Part shown: in pieces, positions 33 to 22,839 of the stretch
How the letters are laid out: every line of letters begins with the position of its first letter
Position numbering within the stretch: position 1 is the stretch's first letter
Source: a virus
Reading direction: 5' to 3' (one strand)
UHGV virus genome: UHGV-0187710
DNA: 40,954 nucleotides
Notes under the pieces: model-generated
What the model saw: the letters and a program-made list of their open reading frames with translations, nothing else
The model's database searches: none
What the model was told of the DNA's origin: nothing
Made by a program: the position numbers and the translations under genes

Positions 33-1283
33 ATGGAAAGTAAAGTAGTTGTTCCGGCACAAGGCAAGAAGATCACCCTGCAAAACGGCAAACTCAACGT
101 TCCTGAAAATCCGATTATCCCTTACATTGAAGGTGATGGAATCGGTGTAGATGTAACCCCAGCCATGCTGAAAGTGGTCGACGCTGCAGTCGAGAAAGCC
201 TATAAAGGCGAGCGTAAAATCTCCTGGATGGAAATTTACACCGGTGAAAAATCCACACAGGTTTACGGTCAGGATGTCTGGCTGCCTGCTGAAACCCTTG
301 ATCTGATTCGTGAATATCGCGTTGCCATTAAAGGCCCTCTGACCACTCCGGTTGGTGGCGGTATTCGTTCTCTGAACGTTGCCCTGCGCCAGGAACTGGA
401 TCTCTACATCTGCCTGCGTCCGGTACGTTACTATCAGGGCACCCCAAGCCCGGTTAAACACCCTGAACTGACCGATATGGTTATCTTCCGTGAAAACTCG
501 GAAGACATTTATGCGGGTATCGAATGGAAAGCAGACTCTGCCGACGCTGAGAAAGTGATTAAATTCCTGCGTGAAGAGATGGGCGTGAAGAAAATTCGCT
601 TCCCGGAACATTGCGGCATCGGTATTAAGCCGTGTTCTGAAGAAGGTACCAAACGTCTGGTTCGTGCAGCGATCGAATACGCAATTGCTAACGATCGTGA
701 CTCTGTGACCCTGGTGCACAAAGGCAACATCATGAAGTTCACCGAAGGCGCGTTTAAAGACTGGGGCTACCAGCTGGCGCGTGAAGAGTTTGGCGGTGAA
801 CTGATCGACGGCGGCCCGTGGCTGAAAGTTAAAAACCCGAATACCGGCAAAGAGATCGTCATTAAAGATGTGATTGCTGATGCATTCCTGCAACAGATCC
901 TGCTGCGTCCGGCTGAATATGATGTTATCGCCTGTATGAACCTGAACGGTGACTACATTTCTGACGCTCTGGCTGCACAGGTCGGCGGTATCGGTATCGC
1001 CCCAGGCGCAAACATCGGTGACGAATGCGCCCTGTTTGAAGCCACCCACGGTACTGCGCCGAAATATGCCGGTCAGGACAAAGTAAACCCAGGCTCTATT
1101 ATTCTCTCCGCTGAGATGATGTTACGCCATATGGGTTGGACTGAAGCGGCTGACCTGATTGTTAAAGGTATGGAAGGCGCAATCAATGCCAAGACCGTAA
1201 CCTATGACTTCGAACGTCTGATGGAAGGCGCTAAACTGCTGAAATGTTCAGAATTTGGTGACGCGATCATCGAAAACATGTAA
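33..1283 (+). CDS. icd: NADP-dependent isocitrate dehydrogenase; the 3' end is the known lambdoid integration target, so the last part may be phage-supplied
   Basis: 416-aa ORF whose full-length sequence is recognisable as enterobacterial Icd (ends ...[16 protein letters not shown]); GC-balanced host-like composition; followed by a hairpin terminator. Confidence 0.97.
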
Positions 1284-1395: not shown

Positions 1396-2013
1396 GTGAA
1401 ACGCATAAGGATAAAGAAACCAAGATGGATTTTTGTTATTTTATTTTTTGTATTTTTAGGTATTCCATTATTTATTGATGGTATCAAGTATACTGATTAC
1501 GCTTCAGAGAATTTGCTGCCTGAATTTACTGGTGTAATACTTGAGTTTGTAATCATTCTTTATGTTATTGATTATATTCAAAAGAAAAATGAGCGTGATA
1601 ATAAAATAAAAGCAGAAAAACGTTTGCGTGAAATGTTTATTTTTTTCTTTAATAAACTGAATGACCACGTTCCTGAAAATTGCAGGATCGGATCTTTTTA
1701 CGGGCGAGAGCATGATAAAAATAAGCGTCAAATGTCATTAATGAAAGCCCATATAGAAAAACATGGGCTAGATGAAAAGGCAATAAGAGAAATTCGTATT
1801 CATTGCAAAGGTGATATTGATTTATTCAATAGTTTTATTCCAGTTGTTGCTACATTAGAAGAGCAGCATTTAAAAGCATGGACGAGAATTTCATATTACA
1901 TGAATGCAATAATTACGGAAAGAGAAACTGTACAATTTTCCGTTATAAAAATCATTGATAAAATACAGACATTTGATGATGCATCCTATAATAATAAACT
2001 GATAGTAGATTAA
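1396..2013 (+). CDS. hypothetical membrane-anchored protein, AT-rich cargo gene between icd and int
   Basis: 205-aa ORF with GTG start preceded by GAGG; hydrophobic N-terminal segment (WIFVILFFVFLGIPLF); visibly AT-rich relative to flanking genes; no recognisable motif. Confidence 0.55.
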   Translation: MKRIRIKKPRWIFVILFFVFLGIPLFIDGIKYTDYASENLLPEFTGVILEFVIILYVIDYIQKKNERDNKIKAEKRLREMFIFFFNKLNDHVPENCRIGSFYGREHDKNKRQMSLMKAHIEKHGLDEKAIREIRIHCKGDIDLFNSFIPVVATLEEQHLKAWTRISYYMNAIITERETVQFSVIKIIDKIQTFDDASYNNKLIVD

Positions 2014-3137
2014 GAGGGTATTTTTTGCCATTCTTTACCTCTGTCATCATGATATTTATCTGTTTGATGCTGGGTTTTATGACCCAGCAATTTTTGTGTA
2101 TCAATTCCCTGGTCTTTGTAAAGACGTTCAGACAATGATCTTTGCTCATGGAATGTAGCGGGTGTTCCATCTCCCCATTTAATACAAGCCTTATCCCTCG
2201 CCTTACTGAAATTCATCGTTAATGTGTTCGATTTAACTTGTGCGCCTCGTTTAGCCTGTGATGTAGCTCGGAAAAAGTGAATCAGATAGGGGCTAACTGC
2301 ATAATCTCGACAGCGCGCAACGACGTCACGTAAACTCCAGTTAATCGCATTGAGGCGAAGAGAAAGAGGTATAGCAATTTTGCTGCCGGTTTTTTCCTGT
2401 TCGATATGCAGATGATCATCCCAGATATCGCTAAATTTCATTTTGGATATGTCACCAAGACGTTGCCCAGTCACAAGGGCAAGCAGCATTGCATTTCCCA
2501 TATATTGATGTTTCTTATCTGCGATATCGAAAATCTTCAGCCACTCTTCGAGACTAAGTCGTTGTCTGGTAATCTTGCGCCTGGGCTGTTTAGTAGCAAG
2601 GGCAGGGTTGTGACCAGGCGGCACTTCACCGTAGTGTTGGGCCTCTTTGAAAACATCGATCAGTACTGAACGAACAACTTGTGCCATTCTTGGTTGACCT
2701 GCAGATAGATACTCTTCAAGAATTTGAGCAATATCCCTGACATCAACAGAAGATATGAGCTTCATTCCCGCACGTTCCTTAAGAAGTGCAACTGGCTTGG
2801 CTTTTTGTTTATACGTATTCTCCTTGATATCACCTGAAGCGAATCTTTCCTCCTGAATTTTCCAGTACCGCTCAAGCCAGGTAACAGTGGTAATTGACTT
2901 ACCCTTGCCGGTAGCAATTCGATCGCTTATAGCCAGTACCTGTCTTGAACGCTGCTCAGCAAGTCTTGCGTTTGCCTCAGTAGCAATTGCTTTAGCCTCA
3001 ACTTCATCAGTACCTAGGCTGTGAAATTTCCCCGTTACAGGATGCTTGTACCTCCAATACACTTTATTGACCTTACGACTGTATAGTGGATAGAGGTTAG
3101 GTATTGATACATTATTTTTACGTGGTCTCGCAGCCAT
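2010..3137 (-). CDS. int: tyrosine-recombinase integrase, lambda Int family
   Basis: N-terminus MAARPRKNNVSIPNLYP and C-terminus FHEQRSLSERLY...LLGHKTQHQTDKYHDDRGKEWQKI resemble lambda Int as recalled; start taken at the internal Met at 3137 (the track ORF extends to 3215); overlaps the xis 3' end as in lambda. Confidence 0.93.
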   Translation of the reverse strand: MAARPRKNNVSIPNLYPLYSRKVNKVYWRYKHPVTGKFHSLGTDEVEAKAIATEANARLAEQRSRQVLAISDRIATGKGKSITTVTWLERYWKIQEERFASGDIKENTYKQKAKPVALLKERAGMKLISSVDVRDIAQILEEYLSAGQPRMAQVVRSVLIDVFKEAQHYGEVPPGHNPALATKQPRRKITRQRLSLEEWLKIFDIADKKHQYMGNAMLLALVTGQRLGDISKMKFSDIWDDHLHIEQEKTGSKIAIPLSLRLNAINWSLRDVVARCRDYAVSPYLIHFFRATSQAKRGAQVKSNTLTMNFSKARDKACIKWGDGTPATFHEQRSLSERLYKDQGIDTQKLLGHKTQHQTDKYHDDRGKEWQKIPS

Positions 3138-3363
3138 CGCTGAGGATCCTTTGCAATTTTGGTGAATCAGATTTCTTGATAACCGGCGCAGCAAGTTCTC
3201 CAACCAATTCCGCATCCTCCCTAACTCTCCAGAGCCTACCTTGCTTCATTGCTGGTGGAGAAAAGAGATTTTGCTTAGCGTAACGGCGCAATGTCGAGAC
3301 GCTAGGTGGATTACTTCTGTATTTATCGGTTGCCCATTCTTCAAGAGTTAACATCTGAATCAT
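3118..3363 (-). CDS. xis: excisionase (Xis-like)
   Basis: 81-aa ORF directly upstream of and overlapping int; N-terminal LTLEEWA...PPAMKQGRLW resembles lambda Xis as recalled; GGAG 8 nt upstream of the ATG. Confidence 0.75.
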   Translation of the reverse strand: MIQMLTLEEWATDKYRSNPPSVSTLRRYAKQNLFSPPAMKQGRLWRVREDAELVGELAAPVIKKSDSPKLQRILSDGCETT

Positions 3364-4037: not shown

Positions 4038-4374
4038 TCCAGGCCTCCAGCTCATTCTGAATCTCTTCGTCGATTTCGTCATTGGTGGCGTCTTCGTTCA
4101 GATAGGCGTGCGCCTCTTTGAAATACTTGTCGCGGCGTTCGTCATACCAGGCAGAGAACTCAGGCGACCAGGCATGGGTATGTCCGAAAAAATCGACTCT
4201 GGCGTTATCTTCTGCGAGACGCTCAACCATGCAGTAAGCTGTGATCAAACCGCATTCACGGATGTACCCACGCAGGTCGCGCTTGCGCCAGTACGGGCTA
4301 TATTTCGAGTCGCAGCGGCTTTTAAATTCGACAGTCCAGCGACGGATGCAACGTGCGTTCAGTGATTTACTCAT
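4030..4374 (-). CDS. hypothetical phage early protein
   Basis: 114-aa ORF, acidic C-terminus, tightly packed in the leftward operon. Confidence 0.6.
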   Translation of the reverse strand: MSKSLNARCIRRWTVEFKSRCDSKYSPYWRKRDLRGYIRECGLITAYCMVERLAEDNARVDFFGHTHAWSPEFSAWYDERRDKYFKEAHAYLNEDATNDEIDEEIQNELEAWND

Positions 4375-4625
4375 TGAGTTGCTCCCTGTCTGGCTCTATT
4401 CAATAACTGGTTAAACATCATGGTTAGGCTGTTACTGCACCCAAATGGCATATCGTTAACACGGTATGTTGGAATGCCCTTGCGAACACCTGACTTCACG
4501 ATCCGGCCGGTGCCATAGAGTTGCGATAATGCGCCAGCGACCGCGGGTGTCTTTTTGTTCATACCTTTGGCGATTTCACCGCTGGTGGTATTCGGATGAG
4601 CCTGGAGATATTCAAATACGGTCAT
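4371..4625 (-). CDS. small putative DNA-binding protein (winged-helix-like)
   Basis: 84-aa ORF; the start ATG overlaps the upstream stop (ATGA). Confidence 0.6.
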   Translation of the reverse strand: MTVFEYLQAHPNTTSGEIAKGMNKKTPAVAGALSQLYGTGRIVKSGVRKGIPTYRVNDMPFGCSNSLTMMFNQLLNRARQGATQ

Positions 4626-4789
4626 GGCGTTTTACCTTTACGTTCCTGTTCCAGTTGCACCAGAGACTCTTTTAATGCTGCGAACGTAGCGTCCAGTCTG
4701 GTGGCAACTTCGCGCATAAGCGGTGCATGCTTTGGTGGCAGTTCAGCAACGGAGGCAAAAGCCTCCGTAACGAGTTCTTTTACCTTCAT
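4622..4789 (-). CDS. small hypothetical protein (55 aa), missing from the 60-aa-minimum ORF track
   Basis: ORF MKVKELVTEAFASVAELPPKHAPLMREVATRLDATFAALKESLVQLEQERKGKTP; ATGA start/stop overlaps on both sides (coupled with the HD gene and with 4371..4625). Confidence 0.4.
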   Translation of the reverse strand: MKVKELVTEAFASVAELPPKHAPLMREVATRLDATFAALKESLVQLEQERKGKTP

Positions 4790-5325
4790 GCGGCGCATTG
4801 GCGCAGCTCCGCCAGTTCGTTAAAGCGGTTCATGAACAGGCCATAGGATTGACCTGGACGGAGAGGGATAACCTGAACGAGATCAGAGCAGGGAATACCT
4901 TCGAGAATTTCCCACTTCGAACCGTTATCGATTTCCAGATCACGGCGCTCGGTAGCTAACATGGTTAGATCGGCGTATTTCACGACGGCAGATTGCTCAA
5001 GCGGGATACCGAATTTAAAGCGGATAAGACCATCAACATAAGTTTCCATGCGCTGGTAGTCAGGCAGCAAGGCTTTGAGCGGGGCTGGAATATCCTGGCA
5101 ATATGCCTCCGCAGCGTCGTGCATCAACGCTTCAAAGGCGAACTCTGGCGGCACAATCTGGCTTACAAGCACAGAGTGCTGGGCCACGCTGTAGAACTCT
5201 GGCAGATGCCCAGCGAATCGACAGATGTTGGAAAGAGCAGTCGCGATATCCTCAACATCGATATCGTCGATTGTGGCGGTCAGGTAGTTAAATTTTTTAC
5301 CGGATAATGTCTGAATGTAGCTCAT
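4786..5325 (-). CDS. HD-domain phosphohydrolase (YfdR-like)
   Basis: H...HD...E metal-binding pattern (AQHSVLV ... ALMHDAAEAY); start at ATG 5325 with GGAG 6 nt upstream. Confidence 0.75.
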   Translation of the reverse strand: MSYIQTLSGKKFNYLTATIDDIDVEDIATALSNICRFAGHLPEFYSVAQHSVLVSQIVPPEFAFEALMHDAAEAYCQDIPAPLKALLPDYQRMETYVDGLIRFKFGIPLEQSAVVKYADLTMLATERRDLEIDNGSKWEILEGIPCSDLVQVIPLRPGQSYGLFMNRFNELAELRQCAA

Positions 5326-5417
5326 GGTTTTCTCCATATTGGCGCGCTGCACCACGCAGATTTTGGTTGCACGAATCCCTCGCCGGATGGCGATAATTAA
5401 TGGAATTACGCTTCAAT

Positions 5418-5441
5418 AAATCCCCGCGGCGCCGGGGATTT
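5418..5441. other. stem-loop between the HD and DUF2303-like genes
   Basis: perfect 9-bp inverted repeat aaatccccg / cggggattt with a 6-nt loop; no strong U-tract on either strand. Confidence 0.4.
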
Positions 5442-5453
5442 AATGCAGAGCAA

Positions 5454-6281
5454 TTAGGCTTTAAAGTTACCGATGAAAGTTTCCACTGATTCACCTTCGA
5501 ACTTGCTGATCAGCAAATCGCGGAATTCATTGGCGATAGCTTCTTCCTGGGCTTCCAGTTGTACTATGCGCAGTACAAAACGAGGTTCATCACCTGTAAG
5601 CAAACTGTTGCGTAAGCTAAAGCGGCGTTCGCCTAAACCTTCATACGGCACACATTTGAATTCGAACGTTACCGGCATTACGTCTTTGCTGCTGGCTTCA
5701 ATACTCTGCATAAGCGATTTTTTGCCGCTGAAATCGCTGTCTTCATGATCCTGCTGGGTTGCCTGCTGGATAGTGATACGACGAACGGACTGAGCGGCTT
5801 GTGAAATCTGCATCGTTCCACCTTCAGCGTCGAACGCTAAGAGGTAATCGCTCCAGTCTTCCAGCCACTCGGCGATTTGTTTTTGTTTCAGACGTTCACC
5901 GTTGATCTGGAGAAGAGCACGGAATGGTGCGGTCTGTTTTAGGGTGATGGATGCAACATTGTCCGCATGACCGGGGTTATCGAGTGTGCCAATGTTGAAT
6001 ACTGAACGGGCTGTCATATGGTCAGCGTCAATAAAGCAGCGTGCTTTTTCAGTGGCGCTGGCATAGCCTTTTGAATAACGAGCAAAATCTTCAATGCTGG
6101 TCGTGGTCATGGCACCGCGGAAGCGGAAACGCTCCAGAGAAAAACGCTCGAGGCTTTCAATGCCGGTACCCTCTGGCAGTAATGCGGTCGGGCAAGCCAG
6201 GCCATGAATATCATTCAGGTGGTAGCCAGAAAGGACCAGGTCTTTTACCTGCTGAAATGTACCGCTGTCTAACTGGGACAT
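5454..6281 (-). CDS. DUF2303 / YfdQ-like phage protein
   Basis: 275-aa ORF; length, position and sequence character fit the YfdQ-type family that sits next to YfdR-like HD proteins in P22/lambdoid prophages (from memory, unverified). Confidence 0.7.
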   Translation of the reverse strand: MSQLDSGTFQQVKDLVLSGYHLNDIHGLACPTALLPEGTGIESLERFSLERFRFRGAMTTTSIEDFARYSKGYASATEKARCFIDADHMTARSVFNIGTLDNPGHADNVASITLKQTAPFRALLQINGERLKQKQIAEWLEDWSDYLLAFDAEGGTMQISQAAQSVRRITIQQATQQDHEDSDFSGKKSLMQSIEASSKDVMPVTFEFKCVPYEGLGERRFSLRNSLLTGDEPRFVLRIVQLEAQEEAIANEFRDLLISKFEGESVETFIGNFKA

Positions 6282-6337
6282 ATAAATTCCTTATTAACTG
6301 ATGATCGAAGAGGTATCAGTGAATTTTTTGTTGCGGA

Positions 6338-6709
6338 TCACTGAGCCGCTTTAAGCTTTCCGTCCACCGCGCCGGTGATGCCGAAGAGTTGCCCCTGATC
6401 CTCCTGGAGGATGGTGAGCTTCCCGCCTTTGTTGACCCACATTGGTGTTTCGGTGGTGTCTTCTTCAGAGACTTTGCCGCGCGGCGTTGGTGTGCTGTAT
6501 TTCAGCTTGTGCTTGATCTTGACGCGTTTCTCTTCGACAGAGTTACCCATGCGCTCAAAATCAAAGGTGAGAACTACCTGGCCTTTGTTACCGTTGTTCA
6601 GAACGCCGAGCGCAGTGGTATTAAGCGCTCCTGCTATTTTGTTCATGAACACTCCGGCATCCAGTTCGCTCAGAAAGTCGGGTACTACGGTCGTGCGGTC
6701 ATTACTCAT
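6338..6709 (-). CDS. hypothetical phage early protein, first gene of the leftward block
   Basis: start taken at internal ATG 6709 (MSNDRTTVVPDFLSELD...); the longer track ORF to 6796 begins with an implausible Cys/Trp-rich extension. Confidence 0.6.
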   Translation of the reverse strand: MSNDRTTVVPDFLSELDAGVFMNKIAGALNTTALGVLNNGNKGQVVLTFDFERMGNSVEEKRVKIKHKLKYSTPTPRGKVSEEDTTETPMWVNKGGKLTILQEDQGQLFGITGAVDGKLKAAQ

Positions 6710-7523
6710 GGTTTTACCCTCGTTAAGGCGGCTGCCACCGCCGTGTTTTCTCCATACACAACAGAGAAGGGCACCTGCAATTGTTGGCGACTGCAATCGC
6801 TATCCTCTTGCCCGGGTGGATTGGGTTATGAGCCCGTCACACGGTGATACCCTTTTCTGTTGCGTAAAAAGGGCGGTACCGAGGTAGAACATTATCTTCG
6901 TCCCCCTTGCATAAGGTTGAAGACCCTGGTACCGCCAAGACTACACACAGCAATACTGGAACTACGGTTATCACGGTCCTAAGCGTGATTTGGTTGTGGT
7001 GGCCGGTACTACGATATTCCGGCATGGGTTGATTATCAGTGACGCACCCTTTCGGGACACTACCTCACGGTTTAGCGCATCAGCCTGCGCATTCACCACA
7101 ACGAAGAGAGCACTGCCGGTGTTCGAATCGAACGAACCTTTTCCCTGCCCAACCCTCCCAACTGAATGGGACTGTCTGGAATCGAACCAGCACTTATGCC
7201 TTGCTCGTCAATGCTCTCGTCGTTGTGCCCTGAAAAAGGCTGGCGGTGACCGGACAAGTGGGAAAACACCGGGCCGCCAGAACAGGGAAGTACTTGTTAT
7301 TGCTTTGGCCTGCTTTTAACCACATCAGGCGCGGTGGTAAGCCATTTGCGAATCATCCGGTTATTCATATGCCACCGGCGGCTACTTCGTGGGCGTCCTG
7401 CCTGTTCGCTGTTGATGAGTTGAATATACTTGTGAGTAATTTTTGTGTAAATACCTTTTGGTATATTTTTATTTACTTTTATAGCAACTAATTGCTTTTA
7501 ATTGGATTTTAATTAAGCAGGTG

Positions 7524-14752: not shown

Positions 14753-15463
14753 GTGTATGGAGCGCAAAGAAGCATGAATCAACAAGACCTGAATTTTGTA
14801 AGAATAGAATTGCGCCGCGCGCTACCTGACCTCTCTGGGGGAACAAAAGGGCAGCTTGAGGCTTTCAGTGAACACCCACCAGCAGACAAAAATGCCACCC
14901 CGCGCCGTGGAATTCATCTCGTCGAACTCGAAGGAGAGAAGGGGCCTCGCTTTGTTAACTCGCTTTCCGCGCCATTGTATGTATTGGAAACACGCAGCCG
15001 CTGCAGGCCAATGCCGCCGATAAAAGATGCGGAATTTGAGTCCGCGCCGTGGCGTAGGGCAGTGTCCGCGCTTAGTGGATACCAGCAGGCCTGGTTGCGG
15101 TACTGCTACGGTTTTGACCTTAGCTATAAGCACCAGGTGATGATGTGTGAATACGTCTGGAAAACTTATCAGAAATGTCTGGGTGATAATTCCCTTCAGG
15201 AGCGCGTAGTAAAGAAACTGATTGGCCTGGTATGGCTGGCAGGGCAGGAAATTGCCGCAACCAGAAATAATGAAACCTATAAAGACTATGCTGGTGCAGC
15301 GTTGGCCCGCATGGTTAGCGTTGATCGTTCGACATGGTTGCGTGTCTATTCAGGGCACTGGGCTGGGTTAAAGGCCGCTTTTACCCAGCTTGATGAATCT
15401 GCGTTGGCAATGGCTCTTGAATACTATGAGGAAGAAGAAGCCCTCAAAGTGGCAGAAATGTAA
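14753..15463 (+). CDS. late-gene antiterminator, Q-like (assignment mainly positional)
   Basis: 236-aa ORF immediately upstream of a short intergenic region with a terminator and then the lysis region; family not confirmed from sequence. Confidence 0.5.
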   Translation: MYGAQRSMNQQDLNFVRIELRRALPDLSGGTKGQLEAFSEHPPADKNATPRRGIHLVELEGEKGPRFVNSLSAPLYVLETRSRCRPMPPIKDAEFESAPWRRAVSALSGYQQAWLRYCYGFDLSYKHQVMMCEYVWKTYQKCLGDNSLQERVVKKLIGLVWLAGQEIAATRNNETYKDYAGAALARMVSVDRSTWLRVYSGHWAGLKAAFTQLDESALAMALEYYEEEEALKVAEM

Positions 15464-15556
15464 AGTAAATTTCACTATCTCCTTCAAACGCGCTTGCAAA
15501 ATGCAACAAAATAAGCCATATTTAAAGCGTATTTGATATGTTGCCAAAGTTTTATA

Positions 15557-15580
15557 AACCCGCCAATGAGCGGGTTTTTG
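15557..15580 (+). terminator. rho-independent terminator downstream of the Q-like gene (tR'-like)
   Basis: 7-bp stem aacccgc / gcgggtt with loop caatga followed by tttttg; a TATAAT hexamer lies just downstream at 15584..15589. Confidence 0.6.
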
Positions 15581-15626
15581 CGTTATAATTCACCGATTTA
15601 AACCAATTGTTTTAAATAGGTGAAGT

Positions 15627-16478
15627 ATGAAAATAGATAATCCCGAAAATCCACTTGAACGAAACGATTTTTCGATGGATGACTTCCATCACTACTTAAG
15701 GGAGTTTGATAAAGCTGTATGTGAAGCGAATGCTGTAAGTCAGGGGGTTGGTGTGCGAATGGCTGAGGCTTTTAAAGGGTGGTCTACATACATTTTTTCA
15801 CGAATCTGCATTCATGCTTCAATAATGATTTCCAACGTACCAAAATCAAGATGGGCTAAGCGGGATTATGACTTTTGGGATTTTTCGGCGATTGCACCTC
15901 ATGTAAGAGCGATTCTGGAAGCTGAGTTATTGTTTATGTATTTATCTGAGAATCCAGATTCAACTGAGGAGTGGTCAGCAAAGTTGAATGTCATGCACAT
16001 GAATGATTGTGTAAAGAGAATTGAGTTATTTACATCTAGTGATAATACGAAAGCATTGGATTTTTATCATGAACAAAAAGATATAATAACTGAGAGACTT
16101 AATAACAACCCTGTTTTTTTATCCCTTGAACAAGGAACCAGAAAACGTTGCTTGACTGGAAAAGCGCTTATGATTCCAAATCGAGATGAGTTATTGGTTA
16201 AACTGGGAAAAGATCCAAAGTCATTTAAAATAATGTTCGATTTTTTATCTCATTATACGCATATACTACCTATGTCATATTATAAAATGGAGCCAAACGG
16301 AAGAGGAACTGGTTGTTTTAACAACTATGACTTTGGCTATATGATTATGGGGATGATTATTTGTACTGAATCCTTGACTAAGTGTACAGATAGATTAGTA
16401 GAACTTTTTCCTGATGTTAGACGGTTGCGAAAAGGAACTAAATCAAAATTCACGTTAGGTCCTAAACCTACAAAATAA
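15627..16478 (+). CDS. hypothetical cytoplasmic protein, AT-rich cargo gene between the Q-like gene and the lysis cassette
   Basis: 283-aa ORF, strongly AT-rich compared with neighbours, no recognisable catalytic motif; followed by a hairpin terminator. Confidence 0.65.
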   Translation: MKIDNPENPLERNDFSMDDFHHYLREFDKAVCEANAVSQGVGVRMAEAFKGWSTYIFSRICIHASIMISNVPKSRWAKRDYDFWDFSAIAPHVRAILEAELLFMYLSENPDSTEEWSAKLNVMHMNDCVKRIELFTSSDNTKALDFYHEQKDIITERLNNNPVFLSLEQGTRKRCLTGKALMIPNRDELLVKLGKDPKSFKIMFDFLSHYTHILPMSYYKMEPNGRGTGCFNNYDFGYMIMGMIICTESLTKCTDRLVELFPDVRRLRKGTKSKFTLGPKPTK

Positions 16479-16505
16479 CAATGAGTCGCTTGCTGCTATT
16501 TTAAA

Positions 16506-16530
16506 GGCTTCCAAATGGAAGTCTTTTATA
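16506..16530 (+). terminator. putative terminator after the 15627..16478 cargo gene
   Basis: stem ggcttcc / ggaagtc with a 4-nt loop followed by ttttata. Confidence 0.45.
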
Positions 16531-16696
16531 ATTTCAGGTTTCGCAAATTATACTTATCTTCACATTTTCATAATAGCGCATAAGCCAGCCCCCCCTCCAT
16601 CAACCACAGCGCCATACGAACTATCGGAGGTGAGGCTAAATTAGTAATCGTTCTTACCTGCACAGGTGCATAAAAATCAGCCTAAAATGCGAGTTT

Positions 16697-17359
16697 TTAT
16701 GAAGAGAGCAGCATGACTTTTTCTTTTGCGGGCGAAGGTGACTGCTCTTTCAAAGGGAAAATTATAAATGCTATAAATGCAGTAAATAATACTATGAAAG
16801 CTAGCACTGTAACTTTCCTTGAAGATGATAGGGCTTTGTTATATTCCTTGGCTATTTTGTTCGTTATATGGATCTTAGTGCTATTTATTTCATCTTTTAG
16901 TATGGATAATTTATTTATAAATTCCTGTGTTTCTTCTCGAGAGTAAAGTTCTGAAGCATCTCTTGGGGTTTCATGTGGATGCCGAGTATAACCAAGTATT
17001 TGTGGTATTAAATTACCATGCGATTGAACTACAGATTCATATTTCTTATAGCAAGCATTATCAAAAAATCTCATTCTTATGCTAAGTTCTCTGAGTTTGT
17101 CAACGTCTAGAGAAACTTGTTCGTTGGCAATAATTAAATCTCCGCGGTTTAATGTATTCTTGTGTTGAAAAATTAGTAAAAGCCATTCTGTATTATTGTA
17201 AAGCTTTTCAAGATTGGCATGTATATCAAGTCCGAGTTTTTCATATGCGGATAATTTGACCTCTTTTTCCTTTGCAGAAAGAGAAGATGAATAAGCCAGT
17301 AATCCGCTTATTATGGCAACAATAAATGTTCCTATAATGGTTAAGGTATTCGAGTCCAT
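16697..17359 (-). CDS. hypothetical membrane protein with hydrophobic segments at both termini, AT-rich cargo gene
   Basis: start at internal ATG 17359 (MDSNTLTIIGTFIVAIISGLLAY...); C-terminal VTVLAFIVLFTAFIAFIIFPL; helical/coiled middle; convergent with 15627..16478. Confidence 0.6.
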   Translation of the reverse strand: MDSNTLTIIGTFIVAIISGLLAYSSSLSAKEKEVKLSAYEKLGLDIHANLEKLYNNTEWLLLIFQHKNTLNRGDLIIANEQVSLDVDKLRELSIRMRFFDNACYKKYESVVQSHGNLIPQILGYTRHPHETPRDASELYSREETQEFINKLSILKDEINSTKIHITNKIAKEYNKALSSSRKVTVLAFIVLFTAFIAFIIFPLKEQSPSPAKEKVMLLSS

Positions 17360-17466
17360 TGTATTCTTCAAAAGTTGGTCAAAAATATATTGTAATATTT
17401 TAATGTATAAAATCAATCATTTCCCCTCATTCTGAGAGGACTCCCAGCAACAAAGAGGGGGGCTAA

Positions 17467-17853
17467 ATGTCCGATCCGATTTCCGGTTCTGGGATGGCTG
17501 GTGGTGTCCTGACGGGGGCCAGCGTCTATGGATTTCTGTCCGGAACCGATTACGGCGTGGTGTTTGGCGCATTTGCCGGGGCTGTATTTTACATTGCAAC
17601 CGCAGCGGATCTAAGTGCAGCGCGCCGACTGGCATATTTTCTGGTGTCGTATATTGCGGGGATCCTTTGTTCCGGGCTGGTGGGTTCAAAGCTGGCTCAG
17701 GCTACCGGCTACAGTGATAAACCACTGGATGCCATTGGCGCCGTAATCGTTTCTGCTTTAGCCGTCAAAATCCTGACATTCCTGAATAATCAGGATGTCG
17801 GCTCGCTGGTGGCGCTGATAACGCGCCGGGGAGGTTCAGGTGGTACAAAATGA
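17467..17853 (+). CDS. putative holin (multi-pass small membrane protein)
   Basis: 128-aa ORF with several hydrophobic helices and charged C-terminus, first gene of the lysis cassette. Confidence 0.6.
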   Translation: MSDPISGSGMAGGVLTGASVYGFLSGTDYGVVFGAFAGAVFYIATAADLSAARRLAYFLVSYIAGILCSGLVGSKLAQATGYSDKPLDAIGAVIVSALAVKILTFLNNQDVGSLVALITRRGGSGGTK

Positions 17854-19012: not shown

Positions 19013-19154
19013 GGTTATTGACACCGGCTGCGATTGGGTAAAACCCATCTACGGCACTGCTCATGATTGGGAAGTGCTGGACAGGCAGACCAAGAAAGAC
19101 ATTCTTATGCATAACAAAGTGTGGATGTCAAACTGTGGCTCTATAACTTATTGA
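18933..19154 (+). CDS. o-spanin (Rz1-like lipoprotein), overlapping the i-spanin 3' end in another frame
   Basis: signal peptide with lipobox LIASC; overlapped spanin architecture. Confidence 0.65.
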   Translation: MYNRLLTICLMTLLIASCAKTGHVRIEVIDTGCDWVKPIYGTAHDWEVLDRQTKKDILMHNKVWMSNCGSITY

Positions 19155-19805
19155 TTTTGTTTTTTTGTTGTCTACCATATCAGGCAATGTGAAGGCATAT
19201 AGAAGAAATACTTCGGTGAAACCAATCATTTCTTGAGCATCTTCTTTTGAAAATTCTTCATCAGAATGAACTGCTCCATTGGAATCGATTCGAACTATAT
19301 GTGCCCATTCCCTCATTTGATCTGTAATCAGTCCCTTAGCATGCAACATAGAAATCCGTTTAACCAATTTTTCATCTTTTGAGTCATTTCCCAGTAACTC
19401 CCGTGTAGCAATGTCCAAGACTTTACGGCAAAGCATAACGGATGTGTCGAAACGACAGCGCCCTAAGTTGTCTTTTGCTTCTATGAAAGCCATAGCAGCA
19501 CGTGGCGGAGTGTGTTCGGGGGCGTTAAGGAGGGTGGGTTTCGGGATGATATCAATCAACTGGTACTCAGTATTTCCAGGAATGATTACGTTTACATCAT
19601 TATTTTGCCTAGATTTTGCACGAGGTAAATAACCACCGGGATTATTCATTTTTACAATAGCAATACCTGATTGAAAACAGCTTCGACAACAAAATGCAAT
19701 ATTAACTAAAGGCCCGGCGTTGATACGCAGTTCTGCCCATCCTTCAAGGACAGCATTTTCCCTCAGACAATGTGGGCAAGTGATATCGAAAGTGAGAATT
19801 CGCAT
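19128..19805 (-). CDS. zinc-ribbon protein with DUF4145-like (HEPN-superfamily-like) C-terminal domain; candidate abortive-infection/defence cargo
   Basis: start at internal ATG 19805; N-terminal CPHC ... CCRSC; C-terminal FIEAKDNLGRCRFDTSVMLCRKVLDIATRELL ... HIVRIDSNGAVHSDEEFSKEDAQE pattern recalled as DUF4145; opposite strand to the lysis genes. Confidence 0.7.
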   Translation of the reverse strand: MRILTFDITCPHCLRENAVLEGWAELRINAGPLVNIAFCCRSCFQSGIAIVKMNNPGGYLPRAKSRQNNDVNVIIPGNTEYQLIDIIPKPTLLNAPEHTPPRAAMAFIEAKDNLGRCRFDTSVMLCRKVLDIATRELLGNDSKDEKLVKRISMLHAKGLITDQMREWAHIVRIDSNGAVHSDEEFSKEDAQEMIGFTEVFLLYAFTLPDMVDNKKTKSISYRATV

Positions 19806-20550
19806 GACTCTACTCCATACATTAAAAGAAATTGAAAATGAATTACACAATGCACAACGACCTGAGTCTACACTCCTTCAACGATATGAAGTATCGAATG
19901 AGATTAAAAAAAAGGAGTTTGTAGTCGCTTTGATCGGTAAACTGATAGAATTGGACCGCCGTCTCTATGTCACATCATTGAAGCCTTAGTTTCAATTTTA
20001 CCGATTTATCGCTTAAGGGGTAGGACTTCAACACTACTAAGTGAGCATTGCAGCAGGCATTCAGGGGAATGCTGTGACAGTAGTTAGCTAGGGTAAACCG
20101 TTTGCGCCTGGGGATTTTACTTTGCGACGGAAAATTAAAAAACTATATGATTTCTTATCCCACTAGGATGTCTGCGGACTACTACTGACTGTTTAGGCTA
20201 TTACGAGGGGCTCAAACTCAACGTCTGGCATCAACGCAGAACTGAAAAAGTCGCCATGAATGTGGTTACGGTATTTGGTGGGATATAAACGTACCTTCAT
20301 TTCTAAGCTTGATAATCACCTTTGTCCGAATTGCCTACGCGATAGTCATGTAGTTTTAGTCATAACCGTTTACCCTATTGATGTCAAGATAAATTGGATA
20401 ACACTGATGAATCGAACCTCTAAATCCTTTGATGGGCCACTCATAGCTGACTGGTTCAAAAAAGTGTTATCAATGGTATGATAAGTTGAGATGAAAGGTG
20501 TAAATGAACTATAATAATTCAACAGTTAATCTGAGAAAAATGGATTATGT

Positions 20551-20820
20551 ATGTCGAATGTAAAAAAAATAGATGCTATAGTTCAAAATTTATTTGAATT
20601 CAGAGATGCTACAGGTGAACTTACGGATAAAAATATTGTTTTAATACAAAAAATCATAACGAACTTACCTGACTATGCTGGTAAGGATCCATATGAATTT
20701 TATTCATCATTTTCTGAAGATATTAATGAGTCGCTCAAAGCAATTGCCAATTATCATAAGGCACATGCTAAATACATTAATGCCCTCGATAAATTAGCAG
20801 AGCTTAGGTCGGAGGGGTAA
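20551..20820 (+). CDS. hypothetical small soluble protein, gene 1 of an AT-rich two-gene cassette
   Basis: 89-aa ORF, very AT-rich, predicted all-helical; 2-nt gap to the next gene. Confidence 0.55.
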   Translation: MSNVKKIDAIVQNLFEFRDATGELTDKNIVLIQKIITNLPDYAGKDPYEFYSSFSEDINESLKAIANYHKAHAKYINALDKLAELRSEG

Positions 20821-20822
20821 TA

Positions 20823-21200
20823 ATGGCTACGGAAGATATTCAGGCTTTGTTATCTAAAGTTAATGCGTTAAGATTTGAAGATAAAAGAATAGAGAAGGAA
20901 ACAGGAGAGATTGAAAATGAAATTCAGGCTCAATTTCTTCGTGATGGTAAAACAAGGAGTACATTAACCATAACATTTATGAGAGGCTTTTTTGGTCTTA
21001 TCGTTTTTTCTTTTATATTTGTGATAGCTTATAACTATTGCGCAGTGCAATGGGTACTTCAATTACAAAGCAAAGGGCTCATGGAGGCTTCTAAAAGTAT
21101 CGCACTACTTGAGTTAGATAAGGTGTTATCTATTATGGTTAGTGCGTTAGGAACATCTCTTGGGTTTATAATTGGCTATTATTTTAAAGACAAAAAATAA
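20823..21200 (+). CDS. hypothetical small membrane protein, gene 2 of the AT-rich cassette
   Basis: 125-aa ORF: charged helical N-terminus then two hydrophobic segments (FFGLIVFSFIFVIAY and VLSIMVSALGTSLGFIIGYYF); followed by a strong terminator. Confidence 0.6.
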   Translation: MATEDIQALLSKVNALRFEDKRIEKETGEIENEIQAQFLRDGKTRSTLTITFMRGFFGLIVFSFIFVIAYNYCAVQWVLQLQSKGLMEASKSIALLELDKVLSIMVSALGTSLGFIIGYYFKDKK

Positions 21201-21273
21201 ATAATTTAATTTTACATTGCTATTTATGTTTTGCTTTTAAGATTTTTAACTTTCTAGATGTAGAGTTATTGTT

Positions 21274-21305
21274 AAAGCACTGGTATTTGCCAGTGCTTTT
21301 TTATT
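21274..21305 (+). terminator. rho-independent terminator after the AT-rich two-gene cassette
   Basis: 10-bp stem aaagcactgg / ccagtgcttt with loop tatttg followed by ttttatt. Confidence 0.65.
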
Positions 21306-21599
21306 AAAATCCGCGGATTAATGACGGCAATCATGAATACTCCTCCAAAGACTGATCCAACGATACGGGTGTATAAGTCACACTTGTTTAATCTGTGATT
21401 GATGGCACTATAATTTATGTTGCACAACATAAACTGCCGATGGAGGGAATTGAGTGCTGAGCATGTCAGACATAAGTGTGTTGTCGAAGGTCTCCTCAGG
21501 CATGGTTTCTGCATAACGTCGACACTTGAAAGCCTCCATAATGACAATAAAGTATAAGTATTATCATTATTAATTGTCACTTGCCGTTGCGACATGCTT

Positions 21600-21611
21600 G
21601 GGCGGCGACCG
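21600..21611. other. candidate cosN cohesive-end site
   Basis: GGGCGGCGACCG matches the lambda 12-nt cohesive end GGGCGGCGACCT at 11 of 12 positions; sits inside an imperfect inverted repeat cttgggcgg cga ccgcctaag, about 100 bp upstream of the HNH and terminase genes. Confidence 0.5.
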
Positions 21612-21700
21612 CCTAAGTTCTCTTTATAAATGAGAAGTTCCCGCTAGCGACCGTTTCTGATTCTTTTTTTCTACTAAGTTTGTATCAAATAAACAGGATA

Positions 21701-22069
21701 ATGCCGATGCCAGCACGAGCAAAGCGTCCATGCCGGCACAAGGGCTGTGCGGCAGTTACCAACGATGCCAGTGGCTATTGTGATCAACACCGACAGCGGC
21801 ATGCTGGTGATGGCTGGCGTAACTATCAGGCAGGAAAGAGCAGGCAGGAACGTGGATATGGGCGGACCTGGGAAATTAAACGGGTGCGTATCCTTCAGCG
21901 TGATAAGTACCTGTGTCAGAACCATCGCCGGCAGAAGATTGCAAAAAAGGCGACCAGCGTTGACCACATCATTCCAAAAGCTCATGGCGGTACTGATGAC
22001 GATTTCAATCTTGAGTCGTTGTGCTGGGACTGCCACAGAGCGAAGACGGCAAGAGAGCGTATCCGATGA
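21701..22069 (+). CDS. HNH endonuclease (packaging-associated)
   Basis: Cys/His-rich ORF with CQNHRRQKIAKKATSVDHIIPKAHGGTDDDFNLESLCWDCHRAKT; directly upstream of terminase genes. Confidence 0.85.
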   Translation: MPMPARAKRPCRHKGCAAVTNDASGYCDQHRQRHAGDGWRNYQAGKSRQERGYGRTWEIKRVRILQRDKYLCQNHRRQKIAKKATSVDHIIPKAHGGTDDDFNLESLCWDCHRAKTARERIR

Positions 22070-22404
22070 GTTAGACCCATTGCACATATTTTGGTTCACG
22101 GCTCTATACAATAGCTAACTGCCCAAAATAATGGGGTGGTTCATCGCGCCGCGCCAACCTGCACTGCAGCTATTGTGGGCAGTCAGGGCATAACTCTAGT
22201 GCCTGTCCACATAATGAGAGCTGCGGTCGTCGGCGCAGCCTGAATGATGACTTCCATCTTGATTGATGCCCACACAGGCCAGGGGAAGGGGGGATCAAAT
22301 CCCTGACCCCTTTCGCCTTCCAGGACTGCCGCCTGAAGGACATTTTTATACGCAAGAAATAAGGATCTTTTTTCCGGTAGGTTTTAACTATTAATAGAGG
22401 TGTT

Positions 22405-22839
22405 ATGGCTGGTGGAATTCGATCATCAGGCGGAGGGCGAAAGCCCGTTTTACCTTCAGGACAAAAAAGCAAACTGACCAGAATCGCACCTCCCGCTGAG
22501 TTAATGGGGGAGAATGCAATAAGACTGTGGAAAACCCAAAGTAAAATTCTGATCGAAAGAGGCGTGTTTGAACTGGAGGATGCGCCCCTGCTTCTGGCTT
22601 ACTGCAATGCCTTCCATTTAATGCTTGAAGCTGAAAAATTGCTCTCGTCAAGCCTGACGACCGAAAGTGAAATGGGGGGATTAAAGAAACATCCCGCCGT
22701 TAACATCAGAAATGATTCTGTTTCCCAGATAGCCCGTCTTGGCTCGCTTCTGGGGTTGGATCCACTCAGCCGAATTAGGATGCGTGGCAGTGGAAATGAT
22801 CCGGACGACGACGGGAATGAATTTGATGAGTTTGACTGA
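22405..22839 (+). CDS. terminase small subunit (P27-type)
   Basis: 144-aa ORF with basic N-terminus and central LLLAYCNAFHLMLEAEK motif; acidic tail; ATGA-coupled to the large subunit. Confidence 0.85.
   Translation: MAGGIRSSGGGRKPVLPSGQKSKLTRIAPPAELMGENAIRLWKTQSKILIERGVFELEDAPLLLAYCNAFHLMLEAEKLLSSSLTTESEMGGLKKHPAVNIRNDSVSQIARLGSLLGLDPLSRIRMRGSGNDPDDDGNEFDEFD

What the first reader, a model, noticed from the sequence alone, without database searches (positions are those of the whole stretch)
15584..17359. AT-rich cargo island between the Q-like antiterminator and the holin (the slot where Stx phages carry toxin genes)
Two convergent AT-rich genes of unknown function (283-aa cytoplasmic protein at 15627..16478 and 220-aa protein with hydrophobic ends at 16697..17359) are inserted between the late-operon terminator and the lysis cassette. 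This is the slot lambdoid phages use for morons expressed both from their own promoters and on induction. A TATAAT hexamer lies right after the upstream terminator, and each gene has its own hairpin terminator. Neither protein shows a motif I recognise.
Basis: partly seen in the sequence, partly recalled or inferred. Interest (0 to 1): 0.58.

Follow-up and report, generated by a model that had tools for sequence, protein, structure and literature searches.

The report
Two unrelated cargo genes before prophage holin
Between the late-gene switch (Q) and the lysis genes of an E. coli prophage lie two AT-rich accessory genes of unknown function that were acquired separately; this is an ordinary kind of phage cargo island, mainly useful as a pair of candidates for phage-conflict assays.

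Summary
Window 15580-17420 is a 1.84-kb island at 33-36% GC inside a 52-56% GC lambdoid prophage integrated at icd. It lies exactly between the tR'-like terminator after Q and the leader of the holin gene.

It carries two convergent genes, both under strong purifying selection:
- **A** (15627-16478, +, 283 aa) is a soluble all-alpha protein of the DUF5677 superfamily.
- **B** (16697-17359, -, 220 aa) is an inner-membrane protein built as TM, four-helix bundle, TM. Its family has only 22 clusters in 5.8 billion proteins.

They are not a system. In every other locus examined, each gene occurs without the other:
- A follows Q on the sense strand behind at least three Q families and before two holin types. 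It also occurs on plasmids and beside CRISPR-Cas.
- B always lies antisense between Q and the holin.

A 48-bp fossil of a class-2 holin leader between A and B marks the recombination joint. Sister E. coli prophages carry other cargo in the same slot.

Function is unproven. My best guess is that A is Q-dependent conflict cargo and that B is a membrane protein made in the lysogen, possibly for superinfection exclusion. This is a new member of a known kind, of moderate-to-low interest.

The parts
14753..15463 (+). Q-type late antiterminator gene (left flank, phage backbone)
   Evidence: PF06323 E 3.7e-36; phrog_304 E 2e-71
15556..15579 (+). tR'-like intrinsic terminator (8-bp GC-rich stem plus U-run). 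It is the last backbone element before the cargo.
   Evidence: Fold -12 kcal/mol, z -2.2. An equivalent hairpin precedes the cargo in all 7 loci aligned. Homology to sister prophages ends at 15579.
15580..17420 (.). The AT-rich cargo island as delimited by comparison with sister prophages
   Evidence: blastn break-points 15579/15580 and 17420/17421 against L001 and L039, and 17430 against L040. GC profile.
15584..15589 (+). TATAAT hexamer at the 5' edge of cassette A. It is a possible weak -10 with no matching -35.
   Evidence: Sequence. The same position reads TACAAT in the Hafnia locus and in E. coli L040, which also carry A, but differs in KSC64, which has other cargo. The promoter scan did not report it.
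15627..16478 (+). Gene A: a 283-aa soluble all-alpha protein of a DUF5677-superfamily subfamily, on the sense strand of the late operon
16503..16526 (+). Terminator hairpin of cassette A. It is palindromic and could act in both directions for the convergent pair.
   Evidence: Terminator scan. Fold shows a 10-bp stem. Conserved in 4 loci, with one compensatory pair.
16591..16638 (+). Fossil of the leader and Shine-Dalgarno of a class-2 holin gene, with the start codon lost. It marks the joint between cassette A and cassette B.
   Evidence: 87.5-89.6% identity to the 48 bases ending at the ATG of the holin_2 gene in C. freundii L022-24 and Nissle L039
16697..17359 (-). Gene B: a 220-aa inner-membrane protein (TM1, four-helix bundle, TM2), antisense to the late operon
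17389..17416 (-). Promoter-like site for B (TTGATT, 16 nt, TACAAT)
   Evidence: 9 of 12 matches in the scan, which is not enriched over shuffles. The TTGATT hexamer is conserved in 4 of 5 B-bearing loci.
17423..17439 (.). Conserved inverted repeat (CCCCTCA ttc TGAGAGG) in the divergent region between B and the holin; role unknown
   Evidence: Conserved in all 5 B-bearing loci aligned
17467..17853 (+). Holin (PF16931), the first gene of the lysis cassette (right flank, backbone)
   Evidence: PF16931 E 5.6e-34; phrog_198

Best explanation
The island is a composite of two independently acquired accessory ('moron') cassettes in the variable slot between the Q/pR'/tR' control region and the holin. 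They are not a two-gene system.

**Cassette A (about 15580-16540).**
- It encodes a soluble, all-alpha, 33-kDa protein of the DUF5677 superfamily.
- It lies on the sense strand immediately after tR'. It should therefore be transcribed mainly when Q makes RNA polymerase read through tR', the same wiring as stx in Stx phages.
- At most there is weak constitutive expression from a -10-only site.
- A pocket of conserved polar residues (R94, E98, D127, R131, S208, H212) and an RGxG loop suggest an enzyme or ligand-binding protein.

**Cassette B (about 16650-17420).**
- It encodes an inner-membrane protein in which two transmembrane helices continue into a four-helix bundle. It looks like the sensor module of chemoreceptors and histidine kinases, but has no output domain.
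- It is transcribed antisense from its own promoter, so presumably in the lysogen. Convergent late transcription should silence it after induction.

**Shown versus inferred.**
- Shown: anatomy, boundaries, independence of the two genes, slot variability, purifying selection, and the fold classes.
- Inferred: the expression pattern, and the function. I think the most likely function is inter-element conflict. A would be a conflict or defence effector carried as cargo by prophages and plasmids. B would be a superinfection-exclusion-type membrane protein made in the lysogen.
For: **Boundaries and variable cargo.**

**A occurs without B, on the sense strand directly after Q/tR'.**
- E. coli L040, representing 17 of 5426 complete genomes.
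- Hafnia L036.
- Enterobacter bugandensis L008-13.
- Citrobacter freundii L019-24.
- Yersinia L038.
- Raoultella L031.
- These loci have at least three different Q families (PF06323, PF06530, DUF1133), plus an unclassified 200-aa protein in the Q position in two loci, and two holin types.

**A also occurs outside phages.**
- Next to a type I-F CRISPR-Cas locus on a Pseudomonas megaplasmid.
- Next to a REase-like DUF4365-TPR protein in Vibrio.
- On Shewanella, Photobacterium and Pseudomonas plasmids.
- One relative is fused to a RES toxin domain.

**B occurs without A, always antisense between Q and the lysis genes.** E. mori, Kosakonia, K. oxytoca and C. braakii.

**Further support.**
- Fossil holin_2 leader between A and B.
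- Purifying selection and AT-richness in every host.
- TM1 and the juxtamembrane region of B are its most conserved part, 0.92-0.94 against 0.63 for TM2.
- The promoter-like TTGATT upstream of B is conserved in 4 of 5 loci.
- The Q-to-holin slot and the definition of a moron are established (PMC8065619).
Against: There is no functional evidence for either protein.
- Neither A nor B matches any PADLOC model, and only 1 of 40 wider-family members hits a candidate model.
- A DUF5677 ORF from Bacillota, chosen because the domain is enriched next to defence-linked serine recombinases, was not among the five ORFs that protected E. faecalis against six phages (10.1101/2025.10.07.681051).
- The window's A scores below Pfam's gathering threshold for DUF5677 (21.7 against 27.1 bits).
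- No -35 accompanies the TATAAT upstream of A, and promoter-like sites are not enriched over shuffles (11 found, 7.4 +/- 2.3 expected).
- The topology of B is unresolved. The positive-inside rule (9 K/R on the bundle side, 3 on the termini side) puts the bundle in the cytoplasm, whereas its structural look-alikes are periplasmic.
- The high conservation of B's 5' end may partly reflect recombination linkage with the holin leader.
Confidence: 0.6

Rival explanations
1. A and B form one two-gene system, for example a membrane sensor plus a cytoplasmic effector, or a toxin-antitoxin pair.
For: They are adjacent and similarly AT-rich. The exact pair is conserved at 99.8-100% identity in the E. coli draft assemblies and metagenome contigs that carry this prophage.
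Against: - Apart from copies of this same prophage, every locus examined has one gene without the other. That is 12 A-only contexts (8 via contig look-ups, plus L040 and three plasmid records) and 4 B-only contexts.
- The genes are convergent, not co-transcribed.
- A fossil of a holin leader lies between them.
- The families have different ranges. A is found across Gammaproteobacteria and beyond, with 1261 representative clusters. B has 22 clusters and is named only from Enterobacteriaceae.
Confidence: 0.04
2. A is a genuine late or lysis-accessory function of the phage, for example a regulator of lysis timing or a helper of particle release, rather than cargo.
For: In all 8 prophage contexts A is the first gene of the late transcript, on the sense strand and directly upstream of a holin or of a methylase plus holin.
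Against: - Sister prophages with the same Q and lysis cassette lack it.
- There is no homologue in 50,697 sequenced phage records and no PHROG match.
- Homologues at 45-52% identity sit on plasmids and in chromosomal islets with no phage genes.
Confidence: 0.12
3. A and/or B are host-directed lysogenic-conversion factors. They would act in stress tolerance, envelope physiology or signalling, or virulence (A being released on lysis, as Stx is), rather than in phage-phage conflict.
For: - The same slot carries stx in Stx phages (PMC8065619).
- B looks like a sensor module without an output domain, and could bind or titrate host sensor kinases or chemoreceptors.
- B's TM1 is highly conserved, which suggests an interaction within the membrane.
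Against: - A has no signal peptide, no hydrophobic segment and no similarity to any toxin.
- A's non-phage neighbours are CRISPR-Cas and nuclease-type genes.
- There is no direct evidence either way for B.
Confidence: 0.14
4. B is a regulator of the adjacent holin, an antiholin-like or lysis-timing membrane protein that travels with the holin_8 cassette.
For: - B abuts a PF16931 holin in 4 of 5 contexts.
- The roughly 107-bp divergent region, including a conserved inverted repeat, is co-inherited with both genes.
Against: - B is antisense to the late transcript, so late transcription should oppose its expression.
- Prophages with the same type of holin_8 cassette (83-87% DNA identity) lack B (L001, L040).
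- In E. mori the neighbouring lysis genes are different.
Confidence: 0.08

Closest known systems
stx operon and nanS-p cargo of Stx phages (Q-pR'-tR' to S slot)
   Same: Gene A has the same position and strand: downstream of Q and the tR' terminator and upstream of the holin. It should therefore depend on Q read-through (PMC8065619; anatomy). The slot content varies among related phages.
   Different: There is no sequence or fold similarity to Stx or NanS. A has no signal peptide. Its relatives also live on plasmids and next to CRISPR-Cas.
Morons as defined for lambdoid phages (extra gene with its own promoter and terminator and deviant composition, e.g. HK97 gp15, lambda bor and lom; the lc/nmpC porin gene in the Q-S slot of PA-2/DLP12, cited from my own knowledge)
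   Same: Deviant GC, presence or absence among sister phages, and a self-contained cassette with a terminator (A) or a promoter-like site on the antisense strand (B).
   Different: The promoter of A and the terminator of B are not demonstrable. Expression in the lysogen is untested.
Pfam DUF5677 (PF18928)
   Same: A aligns to profile positions 25-156 of 166. Of the 32 sequences in the close-homologue alignment (A included), 24 match at E <= 0.01. A profile of A's subfamily retrieves 1261 representative clusters, many of them Pfam-positive. NCBI's PGAP pipeline names the 80%-identical E. coli homologue a DUF5677 protein.
   Different: The window protein itself is below the gathering score. Its subfamily adds an N-terminal helix pair, three invariant cysteines and a conserved basic C-terminal tail (RKGxKSKFxxGPK) that are not shared by the wider family. 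The family has no known function.
Four-helix-bundle sensor modules of chemoreceptors and histidine kinases (Tar/Tsr, NarX/NarQ, QseE, TorS)
   Different: B has no HAMP, kinase or signalling domain, only a 17-residue tail. There is no sequence similarity to these proteins or to any Pfam family. The charge distribution suggests the opposite topology. Four-helix bundles are generic, and de novo designs score just as high.
Prophage superinfection-exclusion membrane proteins (HK97 gp15, T4 Imm, P22 SieA; cited from my own knowledge and reference 15 of PMC11364771)
   Same: A small inner-membrane protein encoded by prophage cargo and positioned for expression in the lysogen.
   Different: No sequence relationship was detected (PHROGs and PADLOC negative). 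The function is untested.

Membership tests
Moron / accessory cargo cassette of lambdoid phages | Present in some phages and absent from closely related phages at the same position | tested here: met
   The slot is bounded by the same or a closely related Q (91-98% DNA identity) in KSC64 and Nissle, and by the same type of holin_8 cassette (83-87%) in KSC64 and L040. KSC64, Nissle 1917 and L040 carry other cargo or A alone, with break-points at 15579/15580 and 17420-17430.
Moron / accessory cargo cassette of lambdoid phages | Nucleotide composition different from the phage backbone | tested here: met
   33-36% GC against 52-56%
Moron / accessory cargo cassette of lambdoid phages | Own promoter and own terminator | tested here: inconclusive
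   - A: terminator hairpin present and conserved, but only a -10-like hexamer upstream.
- B: promoter-like TTGATT-16-TACAAT, partly conserved, but no terminator.
Moron / accessory cargo cassette of lambdoid phages | Expressed in the lysogen and dispensable for phage growth | not testable with these tools
   Needs RNA-seq of the lysogen and deletion mutants.
Stx-type Q-dependent late cargo | Gene on the late-operon strand, downstream of the pR'/tR' region and upstream of the holin | tested here: met
   Met for A in the window and in 6 other species or strains. Not met for B, which is antisense.
Pfam DUF5677 (PF18928) | Score at or above the gathering threshold (27.1 bits) | tested here: not met
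   21.7 bits, E 2.3e-4
Pfam DUF5677 (PF18928) | Homology by transitivity: close homologues and profile hits are bona fide members | tested here: met
   24 of the 32 sequences in the close-homologue alignment match at E <= 0.01, best E 1.1e-8. Relatives found by the profile score 35-47 bits on PF18928. R94, S208 and H212 are invariant across 40 diverse members.
HEPN superfamily (considered for A) | Rx4-6H motif on one helix of a four-helix core | tested here: not met
Known or candidate anti-phage defence systems (PADLOC-DB v2) | Match to a system protein model | tested here: not met
   No hit for A or B at E <= 1. Only 1 of 40 wider-family members hits PDC-S12.
Two-gene system (toxin-antitoxin or sensor-effector) | Conserved co-occurrence and co-orientation of the two genes | tested here: not met
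   Each gene occurs alone in all other contexts, and the two are convergent here.
4HB sensor domains (4HB_MCP, NarX/NarQ type), considered for B | TM, four-helix bundle, TM module coupled to a cytoplasmic output domain; sequence match to the family | tested here: not met
   The fold resembles these modules, but there is no output domain, no Pfam or NCBIfam match and no PDB sequence match.

The most novel reading that the evidence does not exclude
Gene A could define a new single-protein conflict effector that is deliberately wired behind tR'. It would then be made only when a Q protein is present, either from its own prophage or from a superinfecting phage with a compatible Q that trans-activates the resident pR'.

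The Q-to-holin slot would then act as a 'Q-sensing' trigger for an abortive or anti-competitor function. B would be a new family of exclusion proteins shaped like a sensor module.

Nothing here excludes this reading, and nothing here tests it.
Probability: 0.12. Interest if true: 0.65.

Novelty: new member of a known kind. Interest (0 to 1): 0.36.

Why it matters
The Q-to-holin slot is a classic place for lysogenic-conversion genes, including Shiga toxin.

This work shows that two uncharacterised protein families return to this slot repeatedly. They do so behind different antiterminators and in front of different holins. One always lies on the sense strand and the other always antisense. That gives two concrete, cheaply testable candidates for prophage-encoded conflict or conversion functions.

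It also adds a clean example of mosaic assembly, with a fossil holin leader at the joint. A is a useful entry point to DUF5677, a family with more than 1,200 representative clusters and no known function. B is a tiny orphan family restricted to Enterobacteriaceae prophages.

Nothing here overturns current understanding.

Tried and rejected
**Searches for the function of A**
- Foldseek against viral structures: nothing at E <= 0.001.
- Profile searches against PDB sequences with the close and the wide alignment: nothing.
- The afdb50 library was not available.

**Searches for the function of B**
- Profile against PDB sequences: nothing.
- A profile search of 5.8 billion proteins added only 4 clusters.

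**Hypotheses tested and dropped**
- HEPN idea for A: rejected on motif and on hhalign.
- Two-gene system: rejected on co-occurrence.

**Other checks**
- RNA elements: no Rfam family and no tRNA in the island.
- Fusion partners of the wide A family: mostly no Pfam domain, apart from single cases of RES, DUF1353 and an MtlR-like domain.
- Literature: DUF5677 appears in only 3 papers of the library, and none gives a function.
- I could not read atomic coordinates of the models. Whether C32, C61, H124 and C128 form a metal site, and whether R94, E98, D127, R131, S208 and H212 line one pocket, therefore remains an inference from helix positions.
Full report
**What is in the sequence**

The window is a lambdoid prophage integrated next to icd. 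The icd gene is at 33..1283 and the integrase at 2010..3215 on the minus strand. The same arrangement appears in L004.

Around the finding the gene order is:
- RusA, an Ant-like protein and a DUF968 protein;
- Q (PF06323, 14753..15463);
- the two ORFs of the finding;
- holin PF16931 (17467..17853), holin PF05449 and a GH19 endolysin.

The two ORFs are 15627..16478 (+, 283 aa, 'A') and 16697..17359 (-, 220 aa, 'B'). GC falls from 51-57% to 32-39% between about 15450 and 17400. The genes are 35.7% and 33.5% GC, with GC3 of 30% and 26%.

After Q there is an intrinsic-terminator hairpin at 15556-15579, followed at 15584-15589 by TATAAT. The exception is that only A has a convincing terminator of its own (16503-16526). 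Nothing terminator-like follows B.

**Both are real genes**

Against homologues from other genera the synonymous sites are saturated (pS 0.69-0.85). Non-synonymous differences are few (pN 0.07-0.38 for A, 0.30-0.41 for B). dN/dS is 0.04 for the one A pair where it can be computed, and 0.14-0.27 for B.

All homologues are equally AT-rich in their enterobacterial hosts. The ten homologues of B that were read start M-D/E-x-N (most MDSNT), and nearly all homologues are 219-222 aa. The ATG at 17359 is therefore the start, not the upstream TTG used in database entries.

**Boundaries and variability of the slot**

- The exact island is absent from 5,426 complete E. coli genomes and from 50,697 phage records.
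- It is present at 99.8-100% identity in E. coli draft assemblies and gut-type metagenome contigs that carry the same icd prophage.
- Sister prophages share the Q region: Nissle 1917 at 98% DNA identity and KSC64 at 91%. Their homology stops at 15579.
- KSC64 has a 261-aa hypothetical in the slot, and its homology resumes at 17421. Nissle 1917 has an SDH-type protease plus a DNA methyltransferase, followed by a different holin.
- Seventeen complete E. coli genomes carry an A homologue (80% nucleotide identity) alone between Q and the same type of holin_8 cassette. There, homology to the window resumes at 17430.

The cargo is therefore 15580-17420, and the slot is variable.

**A and B are independent cassettes**

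A homologues lie on the sense strand, directly after Q and a tR'-like hairpin and without B, in six further settings:
- E. coli L040;
- Hafnia alvei (86% amino-acid identity);
- Enterobacter bugandensis (82%);
- Citrobacter freundii (58%, followed by a methylase);
- Yersinia bercovieri (57%);
- Raoultella terrigena (50%).

These loci have at least three Q families (PF06323, PF06530, DUF1133). Two of them have an unclassified 200-aa protein in the Q position. Two holin types are represented.

B homologues (37-55% identity) lie without A, always antisense, between a Q-type protein (DUF1133 or PF03589) and the lysis genes. This holds in Enterobacter mori, Kosakonia sacchari, Klebsiella oxytoca and Citrobacter braakii.

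Between A and B, bases 16591-16638 are 87.5-89.6% identical to the 48 bases that end at the start codon of the class-2 holin gene in C. freundii and Nissle. The Shine-Dalgarno is included, but in the window the ATG is gone. This is a fossil. Cassette A once abutted a holin_2 lysis cassette, as it still does in Enterobacter, Yersinia and Raoultella. The module of B plus holin_8 was then joined by recombination at that point.

**Protein A**

*Physical character.* It has no hydrophobic segment and a pI of 8.1. The AlphaFold model is confident (pLDDT 88.5, pTM 0.86) and entirely alpha-helical, with 12 helices.

*Family.*
- A scores 21.7 bits on Pfam DUF5677, below the 27.1-bit threshold.
- Of the 32 sequences in the close-homologue alignment (A included), 24 match at E <= 0.01.
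- A profile of the subfamily finds 1,261 representative clusters among 1.84 billion proteins.
- Across 40 diverse members R94, S208 and H212 are invariant. D85, E98, Y105, D127, R131, G178, P215 and G229 are nearly so.
- The close subfamily adds three invariant cysteines (C32, C61, C128), an NGRGTG loop and a conserved basic C-terminal tail.

*Fold and sequence searches.* Fold searches give only generic helical bundles. PDB sequence searches give nothing. The HEPN motif is absent.

*Context outside phages.*
- Beside a type I-F CRISPR-Cas locus on a Pseudomonas megaplasmid.
- Beside a REase-like DUF4365-TPR protein in Vibrio.
- On conjugative or mobilizable plasmids of Shewanella, Photobacterium and Pseudomonas.
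- One relative carries a C-terminal RES domain.

*Published evidence.* One preprint found DUF5677 enriched next to defence-associated serine recombinases in Bacillota. The ORF it tested was not among those that protected against six Enterococcus phages (10.1101/2025.10.07.681051).

*Catalogues.* PADLOC and PHROGs have no model for A.

**Protein B**

*Architecture.* There are two hydrophobic segments, at about residues 5-27 and 181-203. In the model (pLDDT 81.8) each continues into a long helix, and together with two shorter helices they form a four-helix bundle.

*Family size.* The family has 22 clusters in 5.8 billion proteins, and every source name is from Enterobacteriaceae. No phage record has a homologue.

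*Conservation.* TM1 and the next 18 residues are the most conserved part, 0.92-0.94 against 0.63 for TM2. This may reflect an interaction within the membrane. Part of it could instead come from recombination linkage with the adjacent holin leader.

*Topology.* The charge distribution (9 K/R on the bundle side, 3 on the termini side) suggests a cytoplasmic bundle. This is an inference.

*Upstream region.* A TTGATT-16-TACAAT site has its -35-like hexamer conserved in 4 of 5 loci. An inverted repeat in the divergent region between B and the holin is conserved in all five.

**How it most likely works**

*Shown:*
- two separable cassettes in a variable slot;
- A on the sense strand after tR';
- B antisense, with a promoter-like site.

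*Inferred from the established lambda/Stx-phage model (PMC8065619):*
- In the lysogen, transcripts from pR' stop at the hairpin at 15556-15579, so A is largely silent. Leakage from the -10-only site is possible.
- After induction, Q-modified polymerase reads through tR', A's terminator and the antisense B gene into the holin.
- A is then made as the first late protein.
- B would be made in the lysogen and opposed by convergent late transcription.
- The AT-rich composition makes H-NS binding likely (general knowledge, not tested here).

*Function is a guess.* The mobile-element and CRISPR-adjacent contexts, and the RES fusion, point to inter-element conflict for A. The membrane location and lysogen-type wiring point to superinfection exclusion or modulation of envelope signalling for B. 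I put the cargo anatomy at high confidence and the functional part at roughly one in three.

**Comparison with what is known, and novelty**

The slot and the phenomenon are textbook: stx and nanS-p in Stx phages, and morons in general. The two proteins belong to families without known function. A is a divergent DUF5677 subfamily, and B is an orphan. This is a new member of a known kind.

The most interesting details are:
- the strict strand rule for each family across different antiterminator and holin backgrounds;
- the fossil holin leader that dates the assembly.

Noticed in passing
window 19050-22400, especially 19128..19850 (-): There is a second AT-rich cargo island (36-42% GC) between the lysis cassette and the small terminase gene at 22405. 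It includes an antisense 218-240-aa DUF4145 protein (Pfam E 8e-11; phrog_1305; weak PADLOC PD-T7-4, E 0.0019). This is the 'upstream of the packaging module' hotspot where Tai defence genes sit in phi80 (PMC11364771).
   Followed up: partly
window 1396..2013 (+): A 205-aa ORF at 36% GC lies between icd and the integrase gene, at the prophage end. It has no significant family match. It looks like a third moron at the attachment-site edge.
   Followed up: partly
window 16591-16638: A 48-bp fossil of the leader and Shine-Dalgarno of a class-2 holin gene, with the start codon lost. It marks the recombination joint between cassettes A and B.
   Followed up: yes
window 17423-17439, with L014, L018, L032 and L034: An inverted repeat (CCCCTCA ttc TGAGAGG) in the divergent region between B and the holin_8 gene is conserved in all five B-bearing loci. 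It could be an operator, or an RNA hairpin in the holin leader.
   Followed up: no
L039 (E. coli Nissle 1917) 4497-7178; L001 (KSC64) 4258-5043: Behind the same or a very similar Q gene (98% and 91% DNA identity), the slot holds other cargo. Nissle carries an SDH-type ClpP-like serine protease, two small ORFs and a DNA methyltransferase. KSC64 and more than 20 other E. coli carry a 261-aa protein with no family match.
   Followed up: partly
L008 10855-11931; L009 4629-5451; L019 16574 onwards: Related prophages carry other conflict-type cargo:
- a RelA_SpoT-domain gene after the lysis cassette (E. bugandensis);
- a TacA/GNAT toxin-antitoxin pair in the early region;
- a DarT-HD gene next to the C. 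freundii prophage.
   Followed up: no
window 16697..17416 (-), and database entry P0072: Public annotations call B as 239 aa from a TTG start. All other family members are 219-222 aa (two exceptions, at 242 and 194 aa, differ elsewhere), and those read begin M-D/E-x-N. The 19-codon extension is therefore probably an annotation artefact.
   Followed up: yes
L025 6012-7934 (Vibrio cyclitrophicus); L028 7489-7935 (Pseudomonas silesiensis megaplasmid): In both non-phage contexts the A homologue starts 66 nt after an upstream gene on the same strand. In Vibrio that gene encodes a 640-aa REase-like DUF4365-TPR protein, and in Pseudomonas a DUF6957 protein beside type I-F cas genes. These could be operon partners, but this was not examined.
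   Followed up: no
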